Shown here in pieces: positions 945 through 61,888 of a stretch of DNA of 64,000 bases. The stretch lies in the NCBI GenBank assembly GCA_038233215.1, contig JBBSML010000009.1:12688-76687 (forward strand). The letters are read 5' to 3'. The notes below the pieces were generated by a model. It was not told the origin of the DNA. It worked only from the letters and a program-made list of their open reading frames with translations, and ran no database searches. Each line of letters begins with the position of its first letter. Position 1 is the stretch's first letter. Source of the stretch: Candidatus Limnocylindria bacterium (GTDB taxonomy: Bacteria; Chloroflexota; Limnocylindria; QHBO01). The translations under genes and the position numbers were made by a program.

Positions 945-980
945 CGCCACAACTCCAGGTTCTTCCGTGCGCTGAAATGC

Positions 981-1009
981 TTGCGGCCACCAAACGCGGC
1001 AGATATCAT
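981..1009 (+). promoter_or_regulatory. Sigma70-type promoter (-35 TTGCGG, 17 nt, -10 TATCAT)
   Basis: TTGCGG at 981-986 and TATCAT at 1004-1009 with canonical spacing; predicted TSS ~1014-1017. Confidence 0.55.
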
Positions 1010-1013
1010 GCGC

Positions 1014-1189
1014 GGGTCCGAAGGTCAGGCTCTTCTCCCCCCGGAGCCTGGCCTTCGGCGTTTTCGTGCCCATCGGCGACCGATGAGCCTGACGACCGCG
1101 CGGGACGGGTCCCGTAACCGCCATGCACCGAGATATCGGTCAACGCCAGCGCTGGGCAATACAGCTCCTCGGACCTGATTGTTCGGAGC
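1014..1189 (+). ncRNA. Candidate ~175-nt rod-shaped ncRNA (6S-like) or structured leader
   Basis: Nested pairings 1017-1029/1174-1187, 1043-1050/1162-1168, 1067-1072/1153-1158, 1075-1084/1135-1147, with an apical hairpin at 1101-1114. Has its own promoter. Confidence 0.45.
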
Positions 1190-1203
1190 AGACACCGAAG
1201 CGG

Positions 1204-1212
1204 TGCGATAAT
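1204..1212 (+). promoter_or_regulatory. Extended -10 (TG-C-GATAAT) for the aldehyde dehydrogenase
   Basis: TGn-GATAAT about 40 nt upstream of ATG 1253. Confidence 0.4.
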
Positions 1213-1252: not shown

Positions 1253-2848
1253 ATGAGCACCGCCACGCCGCGTATGAAAATCACCTACGCCACGCTGTCC
1301 GCCGACAACGAGGAGCTCCAGTCGTCCTTCGACGCGGCCGTCGATCGGGCGCGTGCTGACCTCGGCCGGACCTATCCCATGCTGATCGGCGGCGAGGAGC
1401 GCACGGTCGACGATACGTTCGATGATCGATCGCCGATCGACACCGATCTCGTCGTCGCCCGCTTCCCGGTCGGCGGCCGCCAGGACGTCCGCGACGCCAT
1501 CGACGCCGCCCGGGCCGCCTTCCCGGCGTGGCGCGATACGCCGTGGCAGGAACGGCTTGCCATCATGCGCAAGGCCGCCGACCTGATCAGCGAGCGACAG
1601 TTCGATTACGCGGCGCTCATGACGCTCGAGGTCGGCAAGAACCGGCTCGAGGCTCTCGGTGACGTGGAGGAGACGGCGGACCTGCTGCGCTACTACGGCG
1701 ACGAGTTCGAAAAGGCCGATGGATTCGTGAAGCCGCTCGGGTCACTCTCCCCGATCGAGCGGACACGGTCCGTGCTGCGCCCGTACGGCGTGTTCGGCGT
1801 CATCAGCCCGTTCAACTTCCCGATGGCGCTGGCCGGCGGCCCGGCCGGCGGCGCCATGATTGCCGGCAATACGGTCGTCCTCAAGCCATCCTCCGACGCG
1901 CCGCTGTCCGGCTGGAAGTTCGGAGAAGCGCTGCGCGACGCCGGCCTGCCGGATGGTGTGTTCAACCTCGTCACCGGACCGGGAGAGACGGTCGGCGCCG
2001 AGCTTCAGGAGAATTCCGGCATCGACGGCATGGTCTTCACCGGCTCATACGAGGTCGGCATGAAGCTCTATCGCAGCTTCACCAAGGACTTCCCGCGCCC
2101 GATCATCACCGAGATGGGCGGCAAGAACCCGGCGATCGTGACCCGCAGCGCGGATCTCGACGAGGCCGCGGAAGGCGTCATGCGCTCGGCCTTCGGTTTC
2201 GACGGGCAGAAGTGCAGCGCCAACTCGCGCGTGTATGTCGATAAGGAGGTTGCGCGCGAGTTCGTCGACAAGCTGGTGGAGAAGACGCGCGGCATCACGG
2301 TCGGCGATCCCACGAAACGCGAGACGTGGATGGGGCCCGTCATCAACCAGCGTGCGCTCGACACCTTCGCGAGGGCCGCCAGCGATGCGGAAGCCGACGG
2401 TGGCACCATCGAGATCGGCGGCGAGATCCTGCGTGACGCCGACACCGAGCGAGGCTTCTACCCGACGCCAACCGTCGTCACCGGGCTGCCGCTCGCGCAT
2501 CGGCTGTTCCGGGACGAGCTGTTCGTGCCGTTCCTCGTCATCGGCGAGGTTGACTCGCTCGACCAGGCACTCGAAGAGTCCAATGCCAGCGCCTATGGAC
2601 TGACCGCGGGCATCTTCAGCCGGGACGATGCAGAGGTGAAGCGCTTCCTCGACACGATCCAGGCCGGCGTGGTCTACGTGAATCGACGTGCAGGTGCCAC
2701 GACGGGTGCCTGGCCGGGCATCCAGAGCTTCGGTGGCTGGAAGGGTTCGGGCTCGTCCGGCAAGAGCGGGCTGGGACCGTATTACGTGCAGCAGTTCCTG
2801 CGCGAGCAGTCGCAGACCGTCATCGGTGAAGCGTCACCGACACTGTGA
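1253..2848 (+). CDS. Aldehyde dehydrogenase, 1-pyrroline-5-carboxylate dehydrogenase-like
   Basis: SPFNFP, FTGS, EMGGKN, catalytic GQKCSA, YGLTAG, FGGWKGSG. Confidence 0.9.
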   Translation: MSTATPRMKITYATLSADNEELQSSFDAAVDRARADLGRTYPMLIGGEERTVDDTFDDRSPIDTDLVVARFPVGGRQDVRDAIDAARAAFPAWRDTPWQERLAIMRKAADLISERQFDYAALMTLEVGKNRLEALGDVEETADLLRYYGDEFEKADGFVKPLGSLSPIERTRSVLRPYGVFGVISPFNFPMALAGGPAGGAMIAGNTVVLKPSSDAPLSGWKFGEALRDAGLPDGVFNLVTGPGETVGAELQENSGIDGMVFTGSYEVGMKLYRSFTKDFPRPIITEMGGKNPAIVTRSADLDEAAEGVMRSAFGFDGQKCSANSRVYVDKEVAREFVDKLVEKTRGITVGDPTKRETWMGPVINQRALDTFARAASDAEADGGTIEIGGEILRDADTERGFYPTPTVVTGLPLAHRLFRDELFVPFLVIGEVDSLDQALEESNASAYGLTAGIFSRDDAEVKRFLDTIQAGVVYVNRRAGATTGAWPGIQSFGGWKGSGSSGKSGLGPYYVQQFLREQSQTVIGEASPTL

Positions 2849-3240
2849 CCTCCGACGCCACGATCGTGGAGCCCTCCGGCTGGTTTGCCGTCCAGCTCCG
2901 CTACGCCTACCTCTCGGGTGATCCCGAGATGGCGACGCTGGTCGAGGATCGCGTGATCCTGGTGGACGGCTCCGATGAAGAGGCGGCGCTCGGTCGGGCG
3001 GTCGAGATGGCCCCCCAATACGAGGACGACTTCGAGACCGATGACGGCGAGGCCGGGTCCATCCGCTTCGAGGGCATCGTTGCCATCAAGGAGCTCGATG
3101 ACCCGCCGACCGCCGGTGCCGAGGTCTGGCACGAGTACATGTCGCCCGATCCGGCGCGCCCATCACGCGATGACGCGGGCGAACTGCTCCCGCCGGTCTA
3201 CCCGGAGGAGATGGCCTTCCCCCGCGCCCGGGACGACTGA
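2845..3240 (+). CDS. DUF4288-like acidic protein
   Basis: GTG start overlaps the upstream stop (GTGA); WFAV...EDRVILV...EEAA pattern; GAEVW. Confidence 0.65.
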   Translation: MTSDATIVEPSGWFAVQLRYAYLSGDPEMATLVEDRVILVDGSDEEAALGRAVEMAPQYEDDFETDDGEAGSIRFEGIVAIKELDDPPTAGAEVWHEYMSPDPARPSRDDAGELLPPVYPEEMAFPRARDD

Positions 3241-3246
3241 GCGGCG

Positions 3247-4275
3247 GTGAGCGCCTGGCGCATCGCCGCCTACCGGCCCATTCGGCCGCTCCTCTTCCGC
3301 ATCGATCCCGAGCGCATCCACCACGCATCGCTCGCTGCCCTCCGCCTGTCCGGCGGCTCGAGCCTCGGTCGATCGCTGTGCGCGATTGCCTCAGGCGTCT
3401 CATCAGCCGATGCTGTGCGCGCCCCGTTGGACCTGATGGGTCTGCGCTTCCGCAACCGGATCGGCCTGGGCGCCGGCTTCGACAAGGACGGCATCGCCAT
3501 CCGTGGCTGGGCGGCGCTGGGCTTCGGGAGCATCGAGCTCGGTACCGTCACCCCAAGGCCACAGGCTGGAAACCACCGCCCGCGTCTCTTCCGCCTGTCC
3601 CGGGACGAGGCCCTCATCAATCGGATGGGCTTCAATAACCTCGGGGCCGATGCGCTCGCGCGCCGGATCGTGGATGCTCGGCCGTCACTGCCCGCAGGAT
3701 TCGTCATCGGCGTCAATATCGGGCGCAATCGCGATGGTGACGCTTCCGACTATCCCGCAGCGGCCCGCATGGTCGCCGATGTCGCCGACTACCTCGCCAT
3801 CAACGTCAGCAGCCCCAACACTCCCGGTCTGCGCGACCTGCAGGATCCCGATCGCCTGCTCGATCTCCTTGACACCGTGCGCGCCGCGGCACCGCGACCG
3901 CTCATCTTCGTGAAGCTCGCACCGGACCTTGACGCCGGCCGGCTGGAGGATCTCATCGGCGCCCTCGTCGCCTCGCCGGCGGCGGGCGTGATCCTGTCGA
4001 ACACCACGACGAACCACAACGGCCTCACGTCGTGTTTCGCGTCCCAGCCGGGCGGCCTATCGGGCCGTCCCCTCCTGAAACGCACACTCGATGCAGTCGG
4101 TCGGGCTCGGTTCCTGGCTCGTCCCCCCTTCGCGATCATCGCCTCGGGCGGCATCGGATCTGGCGCTGACGCGGCCGCTGCCATGGAGACCGGTGCCGAC
4201 GTGGTCCAGTTGTGGACCGGCCTGATCTACCAAGGACCTGGGCTCATCGGTGATGGTATGATGGCGCCATCATGA
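3247..4275 (+). CDS. pyrD: Dihydroorotate dehydrogenase (quinone)
   Basis: GLGAGFDKDG, GTVTPRPQAGN, INRMGFNN, NVSSPNTPGLR, GGLSG, VQLWTGLIYQGP. Confidence 0.95.
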   Translation: MSAWRIAAYRPIRPLLFRIDPERIHHASLAALRLSGGSSLGRSLCAIASGVSSADAVRAPLDLMGLRFRNRIGLGAGFDKDGIAIRGWAALGFGSIELGTVTPRPQAGNHRPRLFRLSRDEALINRMGFNNLGADALARRIVDARPSLPAGFVIGVNIGRNRDGDASDYPAAARMVADVADYLAINVSSPNTPGLRDLQDPDRLLDLLDTVRAAAPRPLIFVKLAPDLDAGRLEDLIGALVASPAAGVILSNTTTNHNGLTSCFASQPGGLSGRPLLKRTLDAVGRARFLARPPFAIIASGGIGSGADAAAAMETGADVVQLWTGLIYQGPGLIGDGMMAPS

Positions 4276-4520
4276 CACAGCGCACCCAGATTACCCTGGA
4301 TTCGGCTGATCATTGGAGGGCCCGCCGCAGGGCAGCCGACCTCGGCGTCTCACTGGCCGAATACCTTCGTCGGCTCGTCCGCGCAGACCTCGGAGGTGAG
4401 CAGAGCCGGGGGGATGTGTCGACGCTCTTCGCGCTGGGCGACTCTGGCGGCTCCGACATCGCACGCCACAAGGACGCGTACATCGGCGATGCGGTCGAAG
4501 CCGAGCATCCGAGGCGTTGA
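4272..4520 (+). CDS. Antitoxin, CopG/RHH-like (VapB)
   Basis: 82 aa; RTQITLD...RRAADLGVSLAEYLRRLV; SGGSDIARHKD tail; overlaps the PIN gene. Confidence 0.8.
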   Translation: MTQRTQITLDSADHWRARRRAADLGVSLAEYLRRLVRADLGGEQSRGDVSTLFALGDSGGSDIARHKDAYIGDAVEAEHPRR

Positions 4521-4930
4521 CCCTGTTCGTCGACACCTCGGCGTTTTATGCGGCCGCTGATCTCGGGGACAGCAGTCATGCGCGCGCCATCGACATCTTG
4601 GGAGCGGGCGAACCTCTCCTGACCACGGATCACGTCATCGTCGAGTGCTGGCTCTTGCTCCAGCGCCGGCTGGGTCGAGACGCGGCTGAACGCTTCTGGG
4701 CTGCCATCCGGTCCACCGCGACGTCGGTGGAACCGGCCGGTCCGGCGGATTTCGAGGCCGCCTGGAGCATCGGCCTGGCATTCGTCGACCAGGGCTTCTC
4801 CATCGTCGATCGAACGAGCTTCGCCGTCATGCAGCGACTGGGCATCGTGCGCGCCGCCTCGTTCGACGATGACTTCGCCATCTACCGCTTCGGGAGGCGT
4901 CGAGAGCGCGCCTTCGAGGTCGTGCGATGA
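4517..4930 (+). CDS. vapC: PIN-domain toxin (VapC)
   Basis: LFVDTSAFYA, TTDHVIVE, SIVDRTSF, SFDDDF acidic residues. Confidence 0.9.
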   Translation: MTLFVDTSAFYAAADLGDSSHARAIDILGAGEPLLTTDHVIVECWLLLQRRLGRDAAERFWAAIRSTATSVEPAGPADFEAAWSIGLAFVDQGFSIVDRTSFAVMQRLGIVRAASFDDDFAIYRFGRRRERAFEVVR

Positions 4931-60514: not shown

Positions 60515-60664
60515 GACGAGGCTGTTGGCGCTCGCCGCGGCGCCCAGGACCGCATGGTTGAGTCGCGTGATTGGCATGCTCACATCGTGCCACTGCGGCC
60601 GCGCGGAGCGCCGCCGTACCAGTCCGCCCCGCGTGCGGGGATTCCCGGGCGCGATAATGGGCAC

Positions 60665-61888
60665 ATGTTCTACGTCCAGCGCGGCGACGTGCCGCACAAG
60701 CGCCACACCCAATTCCGTAAGCCCGACGGCGGCCTTTACGCCGAGGAGCTGTTCGGTGTCGAGGGCTTCAGCGGCCGCGCCAGCCTCCTCTACCACCACA
60801 CTCCGCCCACCCAGACGCACCAGATCGAAAAAGTGCGCGATGTACTGATCGAGCAAAGCGAGGATGAGGCGTCCGGGCCGCATCGGCATCGGCTGGTCAA
60901 TACGAAGGACCTTCCAGCCAGCGGGAACGGACTGACCGGACGCGTCCCGCTGTTCTACAACCCGGACGTGACCTTTGGCGTGGTCCTCCCCGCAGAGCCG
61001 ATGGAGCGCTTCTACCGCAACGGCGAAGCCGATGAGATGTACTTCGTCCACAGCGGCACCGGCACCCTCGAAACCAATTTCGGGCCGATCGACTACGGGC
61101 CGGGCGATTACCTGGTGATCCCGATCGGCACGACGTTCCGGCTCGCGCCCGGCAGCGACGATCAGCGGATGTTGTGGGTGGAGTCGCCGTCGAGCATCGT
61201 GCCGCCGAAGCGCTATCGCAACGACTTTGGGCAGCTGCTCGAGCACTCCCCGTTCTGCGAGCGCGATATCCGCCCGCCAGCCGAGATAACGCCCTCACTG
61301 GACGAGGGTGATTTCGTCATCGAGGTCAAGACGCGCGGGCGGATCACCGCCTATCACTATCGCCACCACCCGTTCGACCTTGTCGGCTGGGATGGACACC
61401 TGTGGCCATTCGCGTTCAATATCGGCGACTTCGAGCCGATCACGGGGCGTGTCCACCAGCCGCCGCCGGTCCACCTCACCTTCCAGCCGCGCAACTATGT
61501 GATCTGCTCGTTCGTCCCGCGCAAGTTCGACTATCACCCGCTCGCCATTCCCGCCCCGTACAACCACAGCAACATCAACAGCGACGAGGTCATCTACTAC
61601 GTCGCCGGCAACTTCATGTCGCGCCGCGGAGTGGACATTTCGTCCTTCACCATTCACCCGGCGGGCATTCCGCACGGGCCGCACCCGGGCTCCGTCGAAG
61701 CGAGCATCGGCAAGGAGGCGACCGAGGAGCTGGCGGTCATGATCGACACCTTCCACCCGCTCCACCTCACGCGCCAGGCGTCGGAGCTTGAGGACGATCG
61801 GTATCCGTATTCGTGGATGCCGCCGACAGACGGAGCGGAGCACGCGCGCGAGCTGGCCGAACGCGGCCCGGAGGCTTTTCCCGACTGA
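60665..61888 (+). CDS. hmgA: Homogentisate 1,2-dioxygenase
   Basis: PHKRHTQF, DVVGWDG-like DLVGWDG, HQPPPVH, PYNHSNINSDE, HPAGIPHGPHP, AVMIDT. Confidence 0.93.
   Translation: MFYVQRGDVPHKRHTQFRKPDGGLYAEELFGVEGFSGRASLLYHHTPPTQTHQIEKVRDVLIEQSEDEASGPHRHRLVNTKDLPASGNGLTGRVPLFYNPDVTFGVVLPAEPMERFYRNGEADEMYFVHSGTGTLETNFGPIDYGPGDYLVIPIGTTFRLAPGSDDQRMLWVESPSSIVPPKRYRNDFGQLLEHSPFCERDIRPPAEITPSLDEGDFVIEVKTRGRITAYHYRHHPFDLVGWDGHLWPFAFNIGDFEPITGRVHQPPPVHLTFQPRNYVICSFVPRKFDYHPLAIPAPYNHSNINSDEVIYYVAGNFMSRRGVDISSFTIHPAGIPHGPHPGSVEASIGKEATEELAVMIDTFHPLHLTRQASELEDDRYPYSWMPPTDGAEHARELAERGPEAFPD

What the first reader, a model, noticed from the sequence alone, without database searches (positions are those of the whole stretch)
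981..1212. Standalone ~175-nt rod-shaped RNA with its own promoter: 6S-like or a new switch
Seen: a canonical promoter (TTGCGG-17-TATCAT) precedes a region that folds by eye into one long imperfect rod. Pairings are 1017-1029/1174-1187, 1043-1050/1162-1168, 1067-1072/1153-1158 and 1075-1084/1135-1147, with an apical hairpin at 1101-1114 and a bubble at ~1051-1066 (…CGUUUUCG). A competing 15-bp hairpin (1018-1032/1044-1058) followed by CGUUUUC looks like a terminator, and GUCAGGCUC has a third partner at 1085-1093. The downstream ALDH has a separate extended -10 at 1204-1212. Established: 6S RNAs are ~180-nt rods with a central bubble. Inference: this is a divergent 6S RNA, or a bistable leader/attenuator of the P5C-dehydrogenase-like gene.
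Basis: partly seen in the sequence, partly recalled or inferred. Interest (0 to 1): 0.7.

Follow-up and report, generated by a model that had tools for sequence, protein, structure and literature searches.

The report
Promoter-coupled C-loop RNA hairpin upstream of ALDH
The proposed 175-nt 6S-like rod is not real, but its first 84 bases are a previously undescribed, very strongly conserved unit in soil Chloroflexota (class Limnocylindria): a promoter that starts transcription directly at a stable RNA hairpin with an invariant C-rich loop, always just upstream of one aldehyde dehydrogenase gene.

Summary
The long rod is not supported. It is 21 kcal/mol worse than the best fold, and its 3' half lies in a fast-evolving spacer of very variable length that aligns in only one relative. 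No 6S or other Rfam family matches.

What is conserved is window 981-1064. It holds promoter P1 (TTGCGG-17-TATCAT), then 8 nt, then a 41-nt hairpin at 1018-1058 (16 bp, loop UCUCCCCCC, -31 kcal/mol).

- The hairpin occurs once per locus in 158 related loci.
- ALDH lies downstream on the same strand in 134 of the 135 loci with enough downstream DNA.
- It is absent from the sister clade.
- Six stem pairs show compensatory changes.
- G·U outnumbers A·C mismatches 136 to 7, which points to an RNA on the + strand.
- The loop and upper stem never vary.
- The ALDH gene keeps its own conserved extended -10 promoter, P2 (TGCGATAAT, 1204-1212).
- A U-tract after the hairpin (UUUU in the window) is rare among relatives.
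- One metatranscriptome insert starts at the predicted P1 start site and reads through to the ALDH leader.

Best reading (confidence about 0.45): the hairpin is the 5'-terminal element of a P1-driven ALDH transcript, and its C-loop is a recognition site. Main rival (about 0.3): a stand-alone RNA of roughly 45-50 nt that resembles 6C.

The parts
961..980 (+). Moderately conserved block just upstream of the P1 -35 element (TCTTCCGTGCGCTGAAATGC; consensus about A-W-T-C-C-G-T-G-C-n-n-A-A-A). It may be an UP element or a regulator site.
   Evidence: Column frequencies are 58-74% for the core positions across 149 distinct upstream sequences anchored on the -35. Its function was not tested.
981..986 (+). 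P1 -35 hexamer, TTGCGG.
   Evidence: TTGC[GA]N is present in 136 of 149 distinct relatives. The 17-nt spacer between the hexamers varies freely in sequence.
1004..1009 (+). P1 -10 hexamer, TATCAT.
   Evidence: Relatives carry TATCAT (60), TATGAT (52), TATGCT (13) or TAGCAT (10). The spacer is 17 nt in 120 and 18 nt in 26. The hexamer ends 7-8 nt before the hairpin in 135 of 149.
1016..1016 (+). Predicted P1 transcription start, a G seven nt after the -10. G1016 can pair with the invariant C1059.
   Evidence: Inferred from promoter geometry and from the fold of 1016-1066. In a relative, one metatranscriptome insert begins 1 nt before the hairpin, 7 nt after TATGAT. It was not mapped in this organism.
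1018..1058 (+). Conserved RNA hairpin. The 5' arm is 1018-1033, the loop 1034-1042 and the 3' arm 1043-1058, giving 16 bp.
   Evidence: Cells are 99.4% (A1) and 97.4% (A2) paired, 5-6 pairs show changes on both sides, and the structure beats all slid registers. G·U versus A·C is 136 to 7. The covariance model scores 73 bits on + and 31 bits on -. Folding energy is -30.9 kcal/mol, z = -5.35.
1034..1042 (+). Invariant 9-nt loop, UCUCCCCCC. This is the presumed recognition surface.
   Evidence: The loop is invariant in all 39 sequences found through the ALDH gene. The loop was part of the search pattern for the metagenome set, so only the first set tests this.
1059..1066 (+). 3' tail CGUUUUCG. 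C1059 is invariant. The U4 run is specific to the window's subclade.
   Evidence: C46 is invariant in alignments A1 and A2. A U-run of 3 or more occurs in only 18 of 139 relatives. The terminator scan flags 1041-1058 plus this tail.
1067..1203 (+). Non-conserved spacer of variable length.
   Evidence: The spacer aligns only with L117, at 88% identity, and there about 175 extra nt follow the hairpin. It does not align in L001, which has 96% ALDH identity. Hairpin-to-P2 distance is 16-237 nt among 32 genome loci with a recognisable P2. Hairpin-to-ALDH distance ranges from 17 to 1489 nt.
1204..1212 (+). P2, the extended -10 promoter of the ALDH gene (TGCGATAAT).
   Evidence: TGnnATAAT is present in 127 of 137 distinct loci, 112 of them exactly TGCGATAAT. 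It lies a median of 68 nt before the ALDH start. It is retained beside ALDH in L004, where the hairpin is 1.5 kb away.
1253..2848 (+). Linked gene: an aldehyde dehydrogenase closest to L-glutamate gamma-semialdehyde (P5C) dehydrogenase group 2.
   Evidence: PF00171 scores 460 bits. NCBIfam PRK03137 scores 411 bits and TIGR01237 378 bits, both below their cut-offs of 648 and 660. ALDH lies downstream on the same strand in 134 of 135 hairpin loci.

Best explanation
Shown.
- The selected element is an 84-bp module (981-1064), not a 175-nt rod.
- It consists of a sigma-70-type promoter (P1) placed so that transcription should begin 0-2 nt before a very stable 16-bp hairpin.
- The 9-nt loop UCUCCCCCC and the upper stem never vary. 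The lower stem covaries and tolerates G·U only on the + strand.
- The module is single-copy.
- It is restricted to one clade of Candidatus Limnocylindria.
- It lies upstream of, and co-oriented with, one P5CDH-like ALDH gene that also has its own conserved extended -10 promoter, P2.

Inferred.
- The hairpin is the 5'-terminal element of the P1-initiated, long-leader ALDH transcript.
- Its fully paired 5' end shields or marks that mRNA, as 5'-terminal stem-loops do against 5'-end-dependent RNases.
- The exposed C-rich loop is the docking site for a trans-acting partner, either a protein or a G-rich RNA.
- That partner decides whether P1 transcripts continue into ALDH or stop or decay at the hairpin.
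- P2 supplies hairpin-free mRNA, so the gene has two differently controlled inputs.
- In the window itself the hairpin is followed by UUUU. Part of the P1 output probably ends there as an RNA of about 48 nt.
For: - Structure and strand: 97-99% of cells paired, 5-6 compensatory pairs; G·U to A·C ratio 136:7; 73 versus 31 bits for + versus -.
- P1: the hexamers are conserved, the spacer between them is free, and the distance to the hairpin is fixed at 7-8 nt.
- Linkage: of 96 metagenome loci found from the hairpin pattern alone with at least 400 nt downstream, 95 carry ALDH downstream on the same strand. Overall the figure is 134 of 135, at a median of 107 nt.
- By contrast, the upstream neighbour is the methyltransferase in only 77 of 138 loci.
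- There is one copy per locus and per 64-kb window.
- No conserved terminator tail exists. The longest U-run is a single U in 77 of 139 loci.
- In a rhizosphere metatranscriptome, one adapter-flanked 141-nt insert starts 1 nt before the hairpin, at the predicted start site. It runs through the hairpin, the spacer and P2 to 22 nt before the ALDH ATG.
- The leader avoids G-rich partners for the loop. The best duplex averages -9.06 kcal/mol against -10.70 in shuffles, consistent with a loop kept free for a trans partner.
Against: - P2 is as well conserved as P1, so ALDH does not need P1.
- The hairpin-to-ALDH spacer is unconstrained, ranging from 17 to 1489 nt.
- In L004 a convergent 504-aa gene sits between the hairpin and ALDH, yet P1 and the hairpin are intact. 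This argues for a separable unit.
- The RNA evidence is effectively one molecule. Fragmentation may also break preferentially next to a stable hairpin.
- Other contigs from RNA runs also contain sequence upstream of P1, so DNA carry-over or read-through from upstream cannot be excluded.
- No binding partner is identified.
- A simple stabiliser hairpin would not need an invariant loop.
Confidence: 0.45

Rival explanations
1. It is a stand-alone minimal small RNA. P1 makes an RNA of about 45-50 nt that is essentially just the hairpin, ended by termination or 3' trimming. It acts in trans by pairing its C-rich loop with G-rich, Shine-Dalgarno-like sequences, as the C-rich loops of actinobacterial 6C/B11 do. 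Its position next to ALDH would be inherited synteny.
For: - It has its own tightly coupled promoter.
- Nothing between the hairpin and P2 is conserved, and ALDH has its own promoter.
- In L004 the unit is kept intact although a convergent gene separates it from ALDH.
- The invariant loop behaves like a seed region.
- The weak Rfam resemblance is to 6C (23.5 bits) and to Scr3202 (23 bits), aligned on the CCCCCC loop.
- The 6C loops are shown experimentally to bind G-rich ribosome-binding sites without a chaperone (PMC6486639).
- The window, L001 and L136 carry U4-5 after the stem, and a longer U-run goes weakly with a longer spacer (rho 0.19, p 0.025, not corrected for phylogeny).
Against: - Most relatives have no U-tract.
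- One transcript fragment reads through the hairpin.
- Co-orientation with ALDH is near-absolute while the upstream neighbour varies.
- The hairpin shows no depth excess over its flanks in RNA runs, although size selection would remove such an RNA anyway.
- No outstanding target appears among translation-start regions in the 64-kb window. ALDH ranks 185 of 346.
- A 9-nt loop on a single hairpin would be unusually minimal for an sRNA.
Confidence: 0.3
2. It is only a terminator or insulator. The hairpin would stop read-through from the upstream gene, or from a convergent gene as in L004, so that P2 is insulated. The RNA itself would have no further function.
For: - The stem is very stable and GC-rich.
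- The terminator scan flags the window copy.
- In L004 the stop codon of a convergent gene lies 7 nt after the hairpin.
- In some loci the methyltransferase stop codon lies a few tens of nt upstream.
Against: - A conserved promoter sits between the upstream gene and the hairpin, at a fixed 7-8 nt. That is the wrong order for a terminator of the upstream gene.
- Terminators do not keep an invariant 9-nt loop and upper stem across a clade whose ALDH protein has diverged to 74% identity.
- The U-tract is mostly absent.
- A·C mismatches are avoided, so the structure is not selected on the - strand.
Confidence: 0.07
3. It is a bistable leader or attenuator. The terminator hairpin 1018-1058 would compete with an alternative pairing, 1024-1035 with 1082-1093, to switch ALDH transcription.
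For: In the window the alternative 12-nt pairing exists at 92% complementarity, and the hairpin is followed by UUUU.
Against: - The alternative partner is found only in the window. The mean longest complement to the 5' arm in 160 nt downstream is 5.27 nt, against 4.93 nt in shuffles.
- The partner lies downstream of the complete hairpin, so it cannot pre-empt the hairpin during transcription.
- The hairpin has pair probabilities of 0.72-1.0.
- The U-tract is not conserved.
Confidence: 0.04
4. It is a divergent 6S RNA, a rod of about 175 nt with a central bubble that sequesters RNA polymerase holoenzyme.
For: The only support is the by-eye complementarity of distal segments and the length of about 175 nt.
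Against: - No Rfam 6S match appears even at E<=10.
- The rod is 21 kcal/mol worse than the MFE, and its pairs have probabilities below 1e-4.
- The 3' half is absent or unalignable in relatives with 96-97% ALDH identity. In L117 it is pushed about 175 nt further away.
- Hairpin-to-ALDH spacing varies from 17 to 1489 nt.
Confidence: 0.01
5. It is a DNA operator. The 15-bp inverted repeat would be a binding site for a dimeric transcription factor that controls P1 and/or P2.
For: - The repeat is a near-perfect palindrome beginning at about +2 of P1, a classic repressor position.
- In compact loci it lies about 30-70 bp upstream of the P2 start.
Against: - Compensatory double changes occur at six pairs.
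- The 136:7 excess of G·U over A·C is a signature of RNA pairing on one strand, not of half-site recognition.
- The asymmetric 11-nt centre is invariant.
- The distance to P2 is not fixed, at 16-237 nt where P2 is recognisable. In L004 the hairpin lies about 1.5 kb from ALDH.
Confidence: 0.03

Closest known systems
6C RNA (Rfam RF01066; B11 in mycobacteria, scr3558 in Streptomyces)
   Same: - Both are GC-rich hairpins with a run of six cytosines in the loop followed by G.
- Both come from high-GC bacteria.
- The best, sub-threshold, Rfam alignment matches 6C's first hairpin.
- The 6C loops are the functional surface that pairs with G-rich ribosome-binding sites without Hfq or ProQ (PMC6486639).
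   Different: - This element has one hairpin, while 6C has two or more C-loop hairpins.
- It scores 23.5 bits against a gathering score of 47.
- It occurs in a different phylum, Chloroflexota rather than Actinomycetota.
- The stem is 16 bp and starts at the transcript's first nucleotides.
- It is strictly co-oriented upstream of one ALDH gene.
- No trans target has been found.
5'-terminal stabiliser stem-loops (for example E. coli ompA 5'-UTR hp1 and the B. subtilis aprE leader; from my own knowledge, not checked here)
   Same: Both are stable stem-loops placed within a few nucleotides of the mRNA 5' end by promoter geometry, upstream of a long leader.
   Different: Known stabilisers depend on position and stability, not on loop sequence. 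Here the loop and upper stem are invariant. In addition, the gene has a second, hairpin-free promoter.
6S RNA (Rfam RF00013)
   Different: - There is no model match.
- There is no stable or conserved rod.
- There is no conserved central bubble.
- The distal half is not conserved.
Intrinsic terminators and transcription attenuators
   Same: Both have a strong GC-rich hairpin. In the window and a few relatives, 3-5 U residues follow it.
   Different: - The U-tract is absent in most relatives.
- The hairpin starts at +1 to +3 of its own transcript.
- No conserved anti-terminator exists.
- A read-through fragment was observed.
Cis-acting polymerase-modifying leader RNAs (HK022 put, EAR; from my own knowledge, a lead only)
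   Same: Both are sequence-conserved stem-loops right after a promoter. Both act only on the transcript that carries them and are indifferent to the distance from downstream genes.
   Different: put has two stem-loops and is phage-borne. No terminators to be overridden are evident here. Nothing was tested.

Membership tests
6S RNA (RF00013) | Match to the family covariance model | tested here: not met
   There are no matches at gathering score in the window or in 15 orthologous loci. No 6S hit appears at E<=10 over 900-1300.
6S RNA (RF00013) | A long, largely double-stranded rod of about 180 nt with a central bubble as the dominant fold | tested here: not met
   The rod-constrained fold is -64.4 kcal/mol against an MFE of -85.4. 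Rod pair probabilities are below 1e-4.
6S RNA (RF00013) | Conservation or covariation of both rod halves in orthologues | tested here: not met
   Only 963-1064 and the last 57 nt before ALDH align in L001. The spacer aligns only in L117, displaced by about 175 nt.
6S RNA (RF00013) | Binding of RNA polymerase holoenzyme and pRNA synthesis | not testable with these tools
   This needs biochemistry.
6C RNA (RF01066) | Score at or above the Rfam gathering threshold | tested here: not met
   The score is 23.5 bits against 47, with E = 0.51 in a 401-nt search.
6C RNA (RF01066) | Two or more stem-loops, each with a loop of at least six C | tested here: not met
   Only one conserved hairpin exists, and the sequence after it is not conserved.
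6C RNA (RF01066) | An unpaired C-rich loop that pairs with G-rich mRNA sites | tested here: inconclusive
   The loop UCUCCCCCC is invariant and predicted to be unpaired. No convincing target was found in the window or in the ALDH leader.
Intrinsic terminator / attenuator | A GC-rich stem followed by a U-tract | tested here: not met
   The window has UUUU. Only 18 of 139 relatives have a U-run of 3 or more, and in 77 of 139 the longest run is a single U.
Intrinsic terminator / attenuator | A conserved mutually exclusive alternative pairing | tested here: not met
   The third partner is found only in the window, and there is no excess complementarity over shuffles.
Riboswitch | A conserved multi-helix aptamer with invariant junction nucleotides, or a match to a known class | tested here: not met
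   The element is a single plain hairpin, and no riboswitch family matches.
5'-terminal stem-loop leader element | A stem-loop within about 0-4 nt of the transcript's 5' end | tested here: inconclusive
   Promoter geometry puts the start 0-2 nt before the stem in 135 of 149 loci. One metatranscriptome insert begins 1 nt before the stem. No dedicated 5'-end mapping exists.
5'-terminal stem-loop leader element | Co-transcription with the downstream gene | tested here: inconclusive
   One 141-nt insert spans the hairpin through to 22 nt before the ALDH ATG. L004 has a convergent gene in between.
5'-terminal stem-loop leader element | An effect on mRNA stability or expression | not testable with these tools
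   This needs reporter or half-life assays.

The most novel reading that the evidence does not exclude
The P1-hairpin unit is a new family of minimal regulatory RNA in Chloroflexota. It would be a transcript of about 45 nt that is nothing but a blunt, fully paired 5'-triphosphate hairpin presenting an invariant UCUCCCCCC loop. It would act in trans on G-rich ribosome-binding sites, as a one-hairpin functional analogue of actinobacterial 6C that evolved independently, or as a decoy for a C-binding protein. A rarer alternative is a put-like hairpin that stays on RNA polymerase and reprograms it in cis.
Probability: 0.3. Interest if true: 0.65.

Novelty: new variant of a known kind. Interest (0 to 1): 0.5.

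Why it matters
Limnocylindria are abundant soil and freshwater Chloroflexota with no cultured model. A literature search here found no paper on regulatory RNA in this class.

This element is a clean candidate with strong comparative support. It is about 150 sequence-distinct copies of a promoter-plus-hairpin module with covariation, strand-specific wobble pairs and an invariant C-rich loop, tied to one amino-acid-catabolism-type ALDH gene.

- If it is a 5' leader element, it would show sequence-specific control at the extreme 5' end of an mRNA alongside a second, bypass promoter.
- If it is a stand-alone RNA, it would be one of the smallest bacterial regulatory RNAs. It would also extend the 'C-rich loop meets G-rich RBS' logic of 6C beyond Actinomycetota.

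The work also removes a false 6S lead.

Tried and rejected
- **Rfam:** gathering-score scans of the window and of 15 orthologous loci gave nothing. E-value mode gave only sub-threshold 6C and Scr3202 hits, plus noise from P18, mir-185 and HOTAIRM1.
- **The rod:** it was tested by duplex energies, constrained folding and pair probabilities and rejected. mis-registered one helix, and one search is the corrected value.
- **Minus-strand RNA:** the whole intergenic region folds at z = -1.19 only. The model scores 31 bits on - against 73 on +, and A·C mismatches are avoided.
- **Repeat or mobile element:** rejected, because there is one copy in the 64-kb window and one per related locus.
- **Sister clade:** loci L042-L080 were searched with the covariance model. 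No homologue was found. They use a TAGACT -10 instead. Only L042 has a weak hit, at 19.8 bits.
- **Loop to Shine-Dalgarno or G-rich pairing within the leader:** the best duplexes are weaker than in shuffles.
- **Trans targets in the window:** nothing stands out, and ALDH ranks 185 of 346. GGGGGGAGA-like words are depleted, at 9 against 25.6 expected.
- **Expression evidence:** hairpin words occur in many metatranscriptome runs. However, the contigs mostly include DNA upstream of P1 and show no depth excess. No RNA run holds the window's own variant. A search with another variant returned nothing.
- **Literature:** a search for Limnocylindria regulatory RNAs found nothing relevant.
- **Coding explanation:** the 65-aa ORF 981-1178 was rejected, because its downstream part is not conserved and the hairpin shows no synonymous-type variation.
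Full report
**Setting.** The finding lies in the 308-nt intergenic region 945-1252. Upstream is a class-I methyltransferase-like ORF that ends at 944. Downstream is an aldehyde dehydrogenase ORF at 1253-2848. The ALDH matches PF00171. It is closest to L-glutamate gamma-semialdehyde (P5C) dehydrogenase group 2 but scores below the curated cut-offs, at 411 bits against 648. The ALDH's relatives place the window in Candidatus Limnocylindria, Chloroflexota.

**The observation.**
- TTGCGG at 981-986, a 17-nt spacer, and TATCAT at 1004-1009;
- the inverted repeat 1018-1032/1044-1058, followed by CGTTTTCG;
- a reverse-complement copy of GTCAGGCTC at 1085-1093;
- TGCGATAAT at 1204-1212;
- complementary distal segments.

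The region does not fold into one rod. The MFE of 1012-1195 is a series of local hairpins at -85.4 kcal/mol. Rod pairs have probabilities below 1e-4, while the 5' hairpin pairs have 0.72-1.0. The statistical signal comes from the 5' hairpin alone: window 1016-1066 folds at -30.9 kcal/mol with z = -5.35.

**What is conserved.** I fetched 80 loci through the ALDH protein.
- BLAST of the intergenic region shows that only window ~963-1064 is shared. The core, 1019-1059, is 90-98% identical even where the ALDH protein is only 74-80% identical.
- The hairpin is present in all 38 loci that have ALDH identity of at least 74% and hold upstream DNA (L001-L040). It is absent from L042-L080, the Limnocylindrales-type loci with 60-67% ALDH identity, which carry a TAGACT -10 instead.
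- It is unalignable in L001, which has 96% ALDH identity.
- Hairpin-to-ALDH distance ranges from 17 to 1489 nt, with a median of 107.

The rod, the 1101-1114 hairpin and the 'third partner' therefore lie in a fast-evolving spacer.

**The hairpin is an RNA on the + strand.**
- In 39 sequences found through the protein, not through the hairpin, 99.4% of cells pair, 5 of 16 pairs show changes on both sides, and every slid register is far worse.
- An alignment of 34 distinct hairpin variants, including metagenome copies, gives 6 compensatory pairs.
- Across 120 distinct copies the stem has 136 G·U against 7 A·C non-Watson-Crick cells. That asymmetry is expected only if the + strand is the folded molecule.
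- The covariance model scores 73 bits on the + strand and 31 on the - strand.
- The 9-nt loop UCUCCCCCC, the upper nine stem pairs and the C just after the stem are invariant.
- This pattern argues against a plain terminator, a DNA operator or a coding constraint.

**Two promoters.**
- *P1.* Among 149 distinct upstream sequences, the -35 is TTGC[GA]N in 136. The -10 is TATCAT, TATGAT, TATGCT or TAGCAT in 135. The spacer is 17 or 18 nt in 146, and its sequence is free. The -10 ends 7-8 nt before the hairpin in 135. Transcription should therefore begin 0-2 nt before the stem. In the window, G1016 can pair with the invariant C1059.
- *P2.* TGCGATAAT is exact in 112 of 137 distinct loci and lies a median of 68 nt before the ALDH start. 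Its distance from the hairpin is 16-237 nt among the loci where it is recognisable.

**Linkage.** An exact-pattern scan of metagenome contigs for the hairpin core, which is blind to the ALDH gene, returned 120 loci.
- Of the 96 with at least 400 nt downstream, 95 carry the ALDH on the same strand.
- Overall the figure is 134 of 135.
- The upstream neighbour is the methyltransferase in only 77 of 138 loci.
- There is one copy per locus and one in the 64-kb window.
- There are two exceptions. L171 has no ALDH within 2.3 kb. In L004 a convergent 504-aa 'choice-of-anchor Q' gene ends 7 nt after the hairpin, while P2 stays beside ALDH.

**Terminator or switch?**
- The window has UUUU after the stem. 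Among 139 distinct relatives, however, only 18 have a U-run of 3 or more, and in 77 the longest run is a single U. The usual tail is C-N-U-G-C-C.
- The alternative pairing 1024-1035/1082-1093 is unique to the window.
- Longer U-runs go weakly with longer spacers (rho 0.19, p 0.025, uncorrected for phylogeny). This hints that the window's subclade may terminate more at the hairpin.

**Expression.**
- Hairpin words occur in many soil, rhizosphere and sludge metatranscriptome runs.
- Most contigs from those runs also include sequence upstream of P1 and show no depth excess over the flanks. DNA carry-over or read-through from upstream cannot be excluded.
- The 'FL-cDNA' runs behave like DNA.
- One record is informative. 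In run X12 a 161-nt contig is a 141-nt insert flanked by adapter on both sides. The insert starts at L019:2839, which is 1 nt before the hairpin and 7 nt after TATGAT. It runs through the hairpin, the spacer and P2 to 22 nt before the ALDH ATG. This fits a P1-initiated transcript that reads through the hairpin. It is effectively a single molecule, and RNA fragmentation may favour breaks beside a stable stem.
- No RNA run holds the window's own variant.

**Mechanism.** It is shown that a promoter-coupled, strand-specific RNA hairpin with an invariant loop is genetically tied to the ALDH gene, which has a second promoter.

The inferred best reading (0.45) has two parts. The hairpin is the 5'-terminal element of the P1-derived long-leader ALDH mRNA. 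Its exposed C-rich loop is a recognition site for a trans factor that sets the fate of P1 transcripts, while P2 supplies hairpin-free mRNA. Four observations support this:
- near-absolute co-orientation with ALDH despite a variable upstream neighbour;
- the missing U-tract;
- the read-through fragment;
- leaders that avoid G-rich partners for the loop (-9.06 against -10.70 kcal/mol in shuffles).

The main rival (0.3) is a stand-alone hairpin RNA of about 45-50 nt that acts in trans like the C-rich loops of 6C (PMC6486639). It is favoured by the separable architecture in L004, by the conserved P2 and by the unconstrained spacer. No target stood out in the window. The two readings are not mutually exclusive.

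**Comparison with known families.**
- 6S: every testable defining feature fails.
- 6C: it shares the CCCCCC-G loop on a GC-rich stem. However, this element has one hairpin rather than two or more, scores 23.5 bits against 47, and occurs in another phylum.
- It is not a riboswitch or a canonical attenuator.
- No Rfam family matches it in 16 loci.
- A literature search found nothing on Limnocylindria regulatory RNAs.

I therefore file it as a new variant of a known kind: a C-rich-loop regulatory hairpin or 5' leader element. It is not a member of any named family.

**Verdict.** Interest is 0.5.

Noticed in passing
window 60648-60668: This is the only other near-match to the P2 motif in the window: GGCGCGATAATGG. 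An ATG follows 7 nt after the -10, opening an ORF that begins MFYVQRGDVPHKRHTQF. That looks like a leaderless mRNA. From memory the N-terminus resembles homogentisate 1,2-dioxygenase, which was not tested. It may share a promoter type with the ALDH gene.
   Followed up: partly
L004 1455-3020: In this one genome a convergent 504-aa gene (choice-of-anchor Q domain, hydrophobic C-terminus) sits between the hairpin and ALDH. Its stop codon is 7 nt after the hairpin. P1 and the hairpin are intact, and a P2 variant (TGCATAAT) stays next to ALDH.
   Followed up: partly
L171 169-2483: This is the only hairpin locus with ample downstream DNA (2.3 kb) and no ALDH. The downstream ORFs look unrelated. It may be a rearrangement or a chimeric contig.
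   Followed up: no
L014, L018, L010, L029, L013 (P2 5'-UTRs, about 30 nt before the ALDH ATG): One subclade with very short leaders has a C-run followed by GGAGG or GAGG in the P2-derived 5' UTR, for example GCCGCCCCCCGGAGGTCC. This resembles the hairpin's loop plus 3' arm, CCCCCCGGAGCC. It could be a second site for the same partner, or chance.
   Followed up: no
L013, L014, L018, L029, L088, L123, L127, L128, L132 and others, about 132 nt after the hairpin: A 8-9 nt perfect complement to the hairpin's 5' arm base (GGCCTTCGA) recurs inside the ALDH coding region in the compact-leader subclade. It may simply be the conserved codons there.
   Followed up: no
whole window: Words within one mismatch of GGGGGGAGA, the complement of the loop, are strongly depleted: 9 found against 25.6 +/- 4.9 expected. 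The only exact one is the hairpin's own opposite strand.
   Followed up: no
window 961-980 and equivalents: A moderately conserved block (about AWTCCGTGCnnAAA) lies directly upstream of the P1 -35. In several relatives a further palindrome (ATCCGTnnnnnnnnACGGAT) lies upstream of it. These are possible regulator sites for P1.
   Followed up: partly
window 2845-3240: A DUF4288 ORF of 131 aa starts with a GTG that overlaps the ALDH stop codon (GTGA). This suggests translational coupling in an ALDH-DUF4288 operon.
   Followed up: partly
window 4272-4930: This is a toxin-antitoxin-like pair. An 82-aa ORF with no Pfam hit overlaps by 4 nt a 137-aa PIN-domain (VapC-like) ORF.
   Followed up: partly
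L042 2898-2962: In one sister-clade locus an inverted repeat with the same stem-base sequence (UCGAGGGCC...GGCCCUCGGC) brackets the TAGACT -10 upstream of ALDH. It scores 19.8 bits with model R1, E = 0.068. It could be a remnant or precursor of the hairpin, or chance.
   Followed up: no
all hairpin loci: Longer U-runs after the stem go weakly with longer hairpin-to-ALDH spacers. Median spacer is 107 nt for U-runs of 1-2 and 151-230 nt for U-runs of 4-5 (rho 0.19, p 0.025, not corrected for phylogeny).
   Followed up: partly
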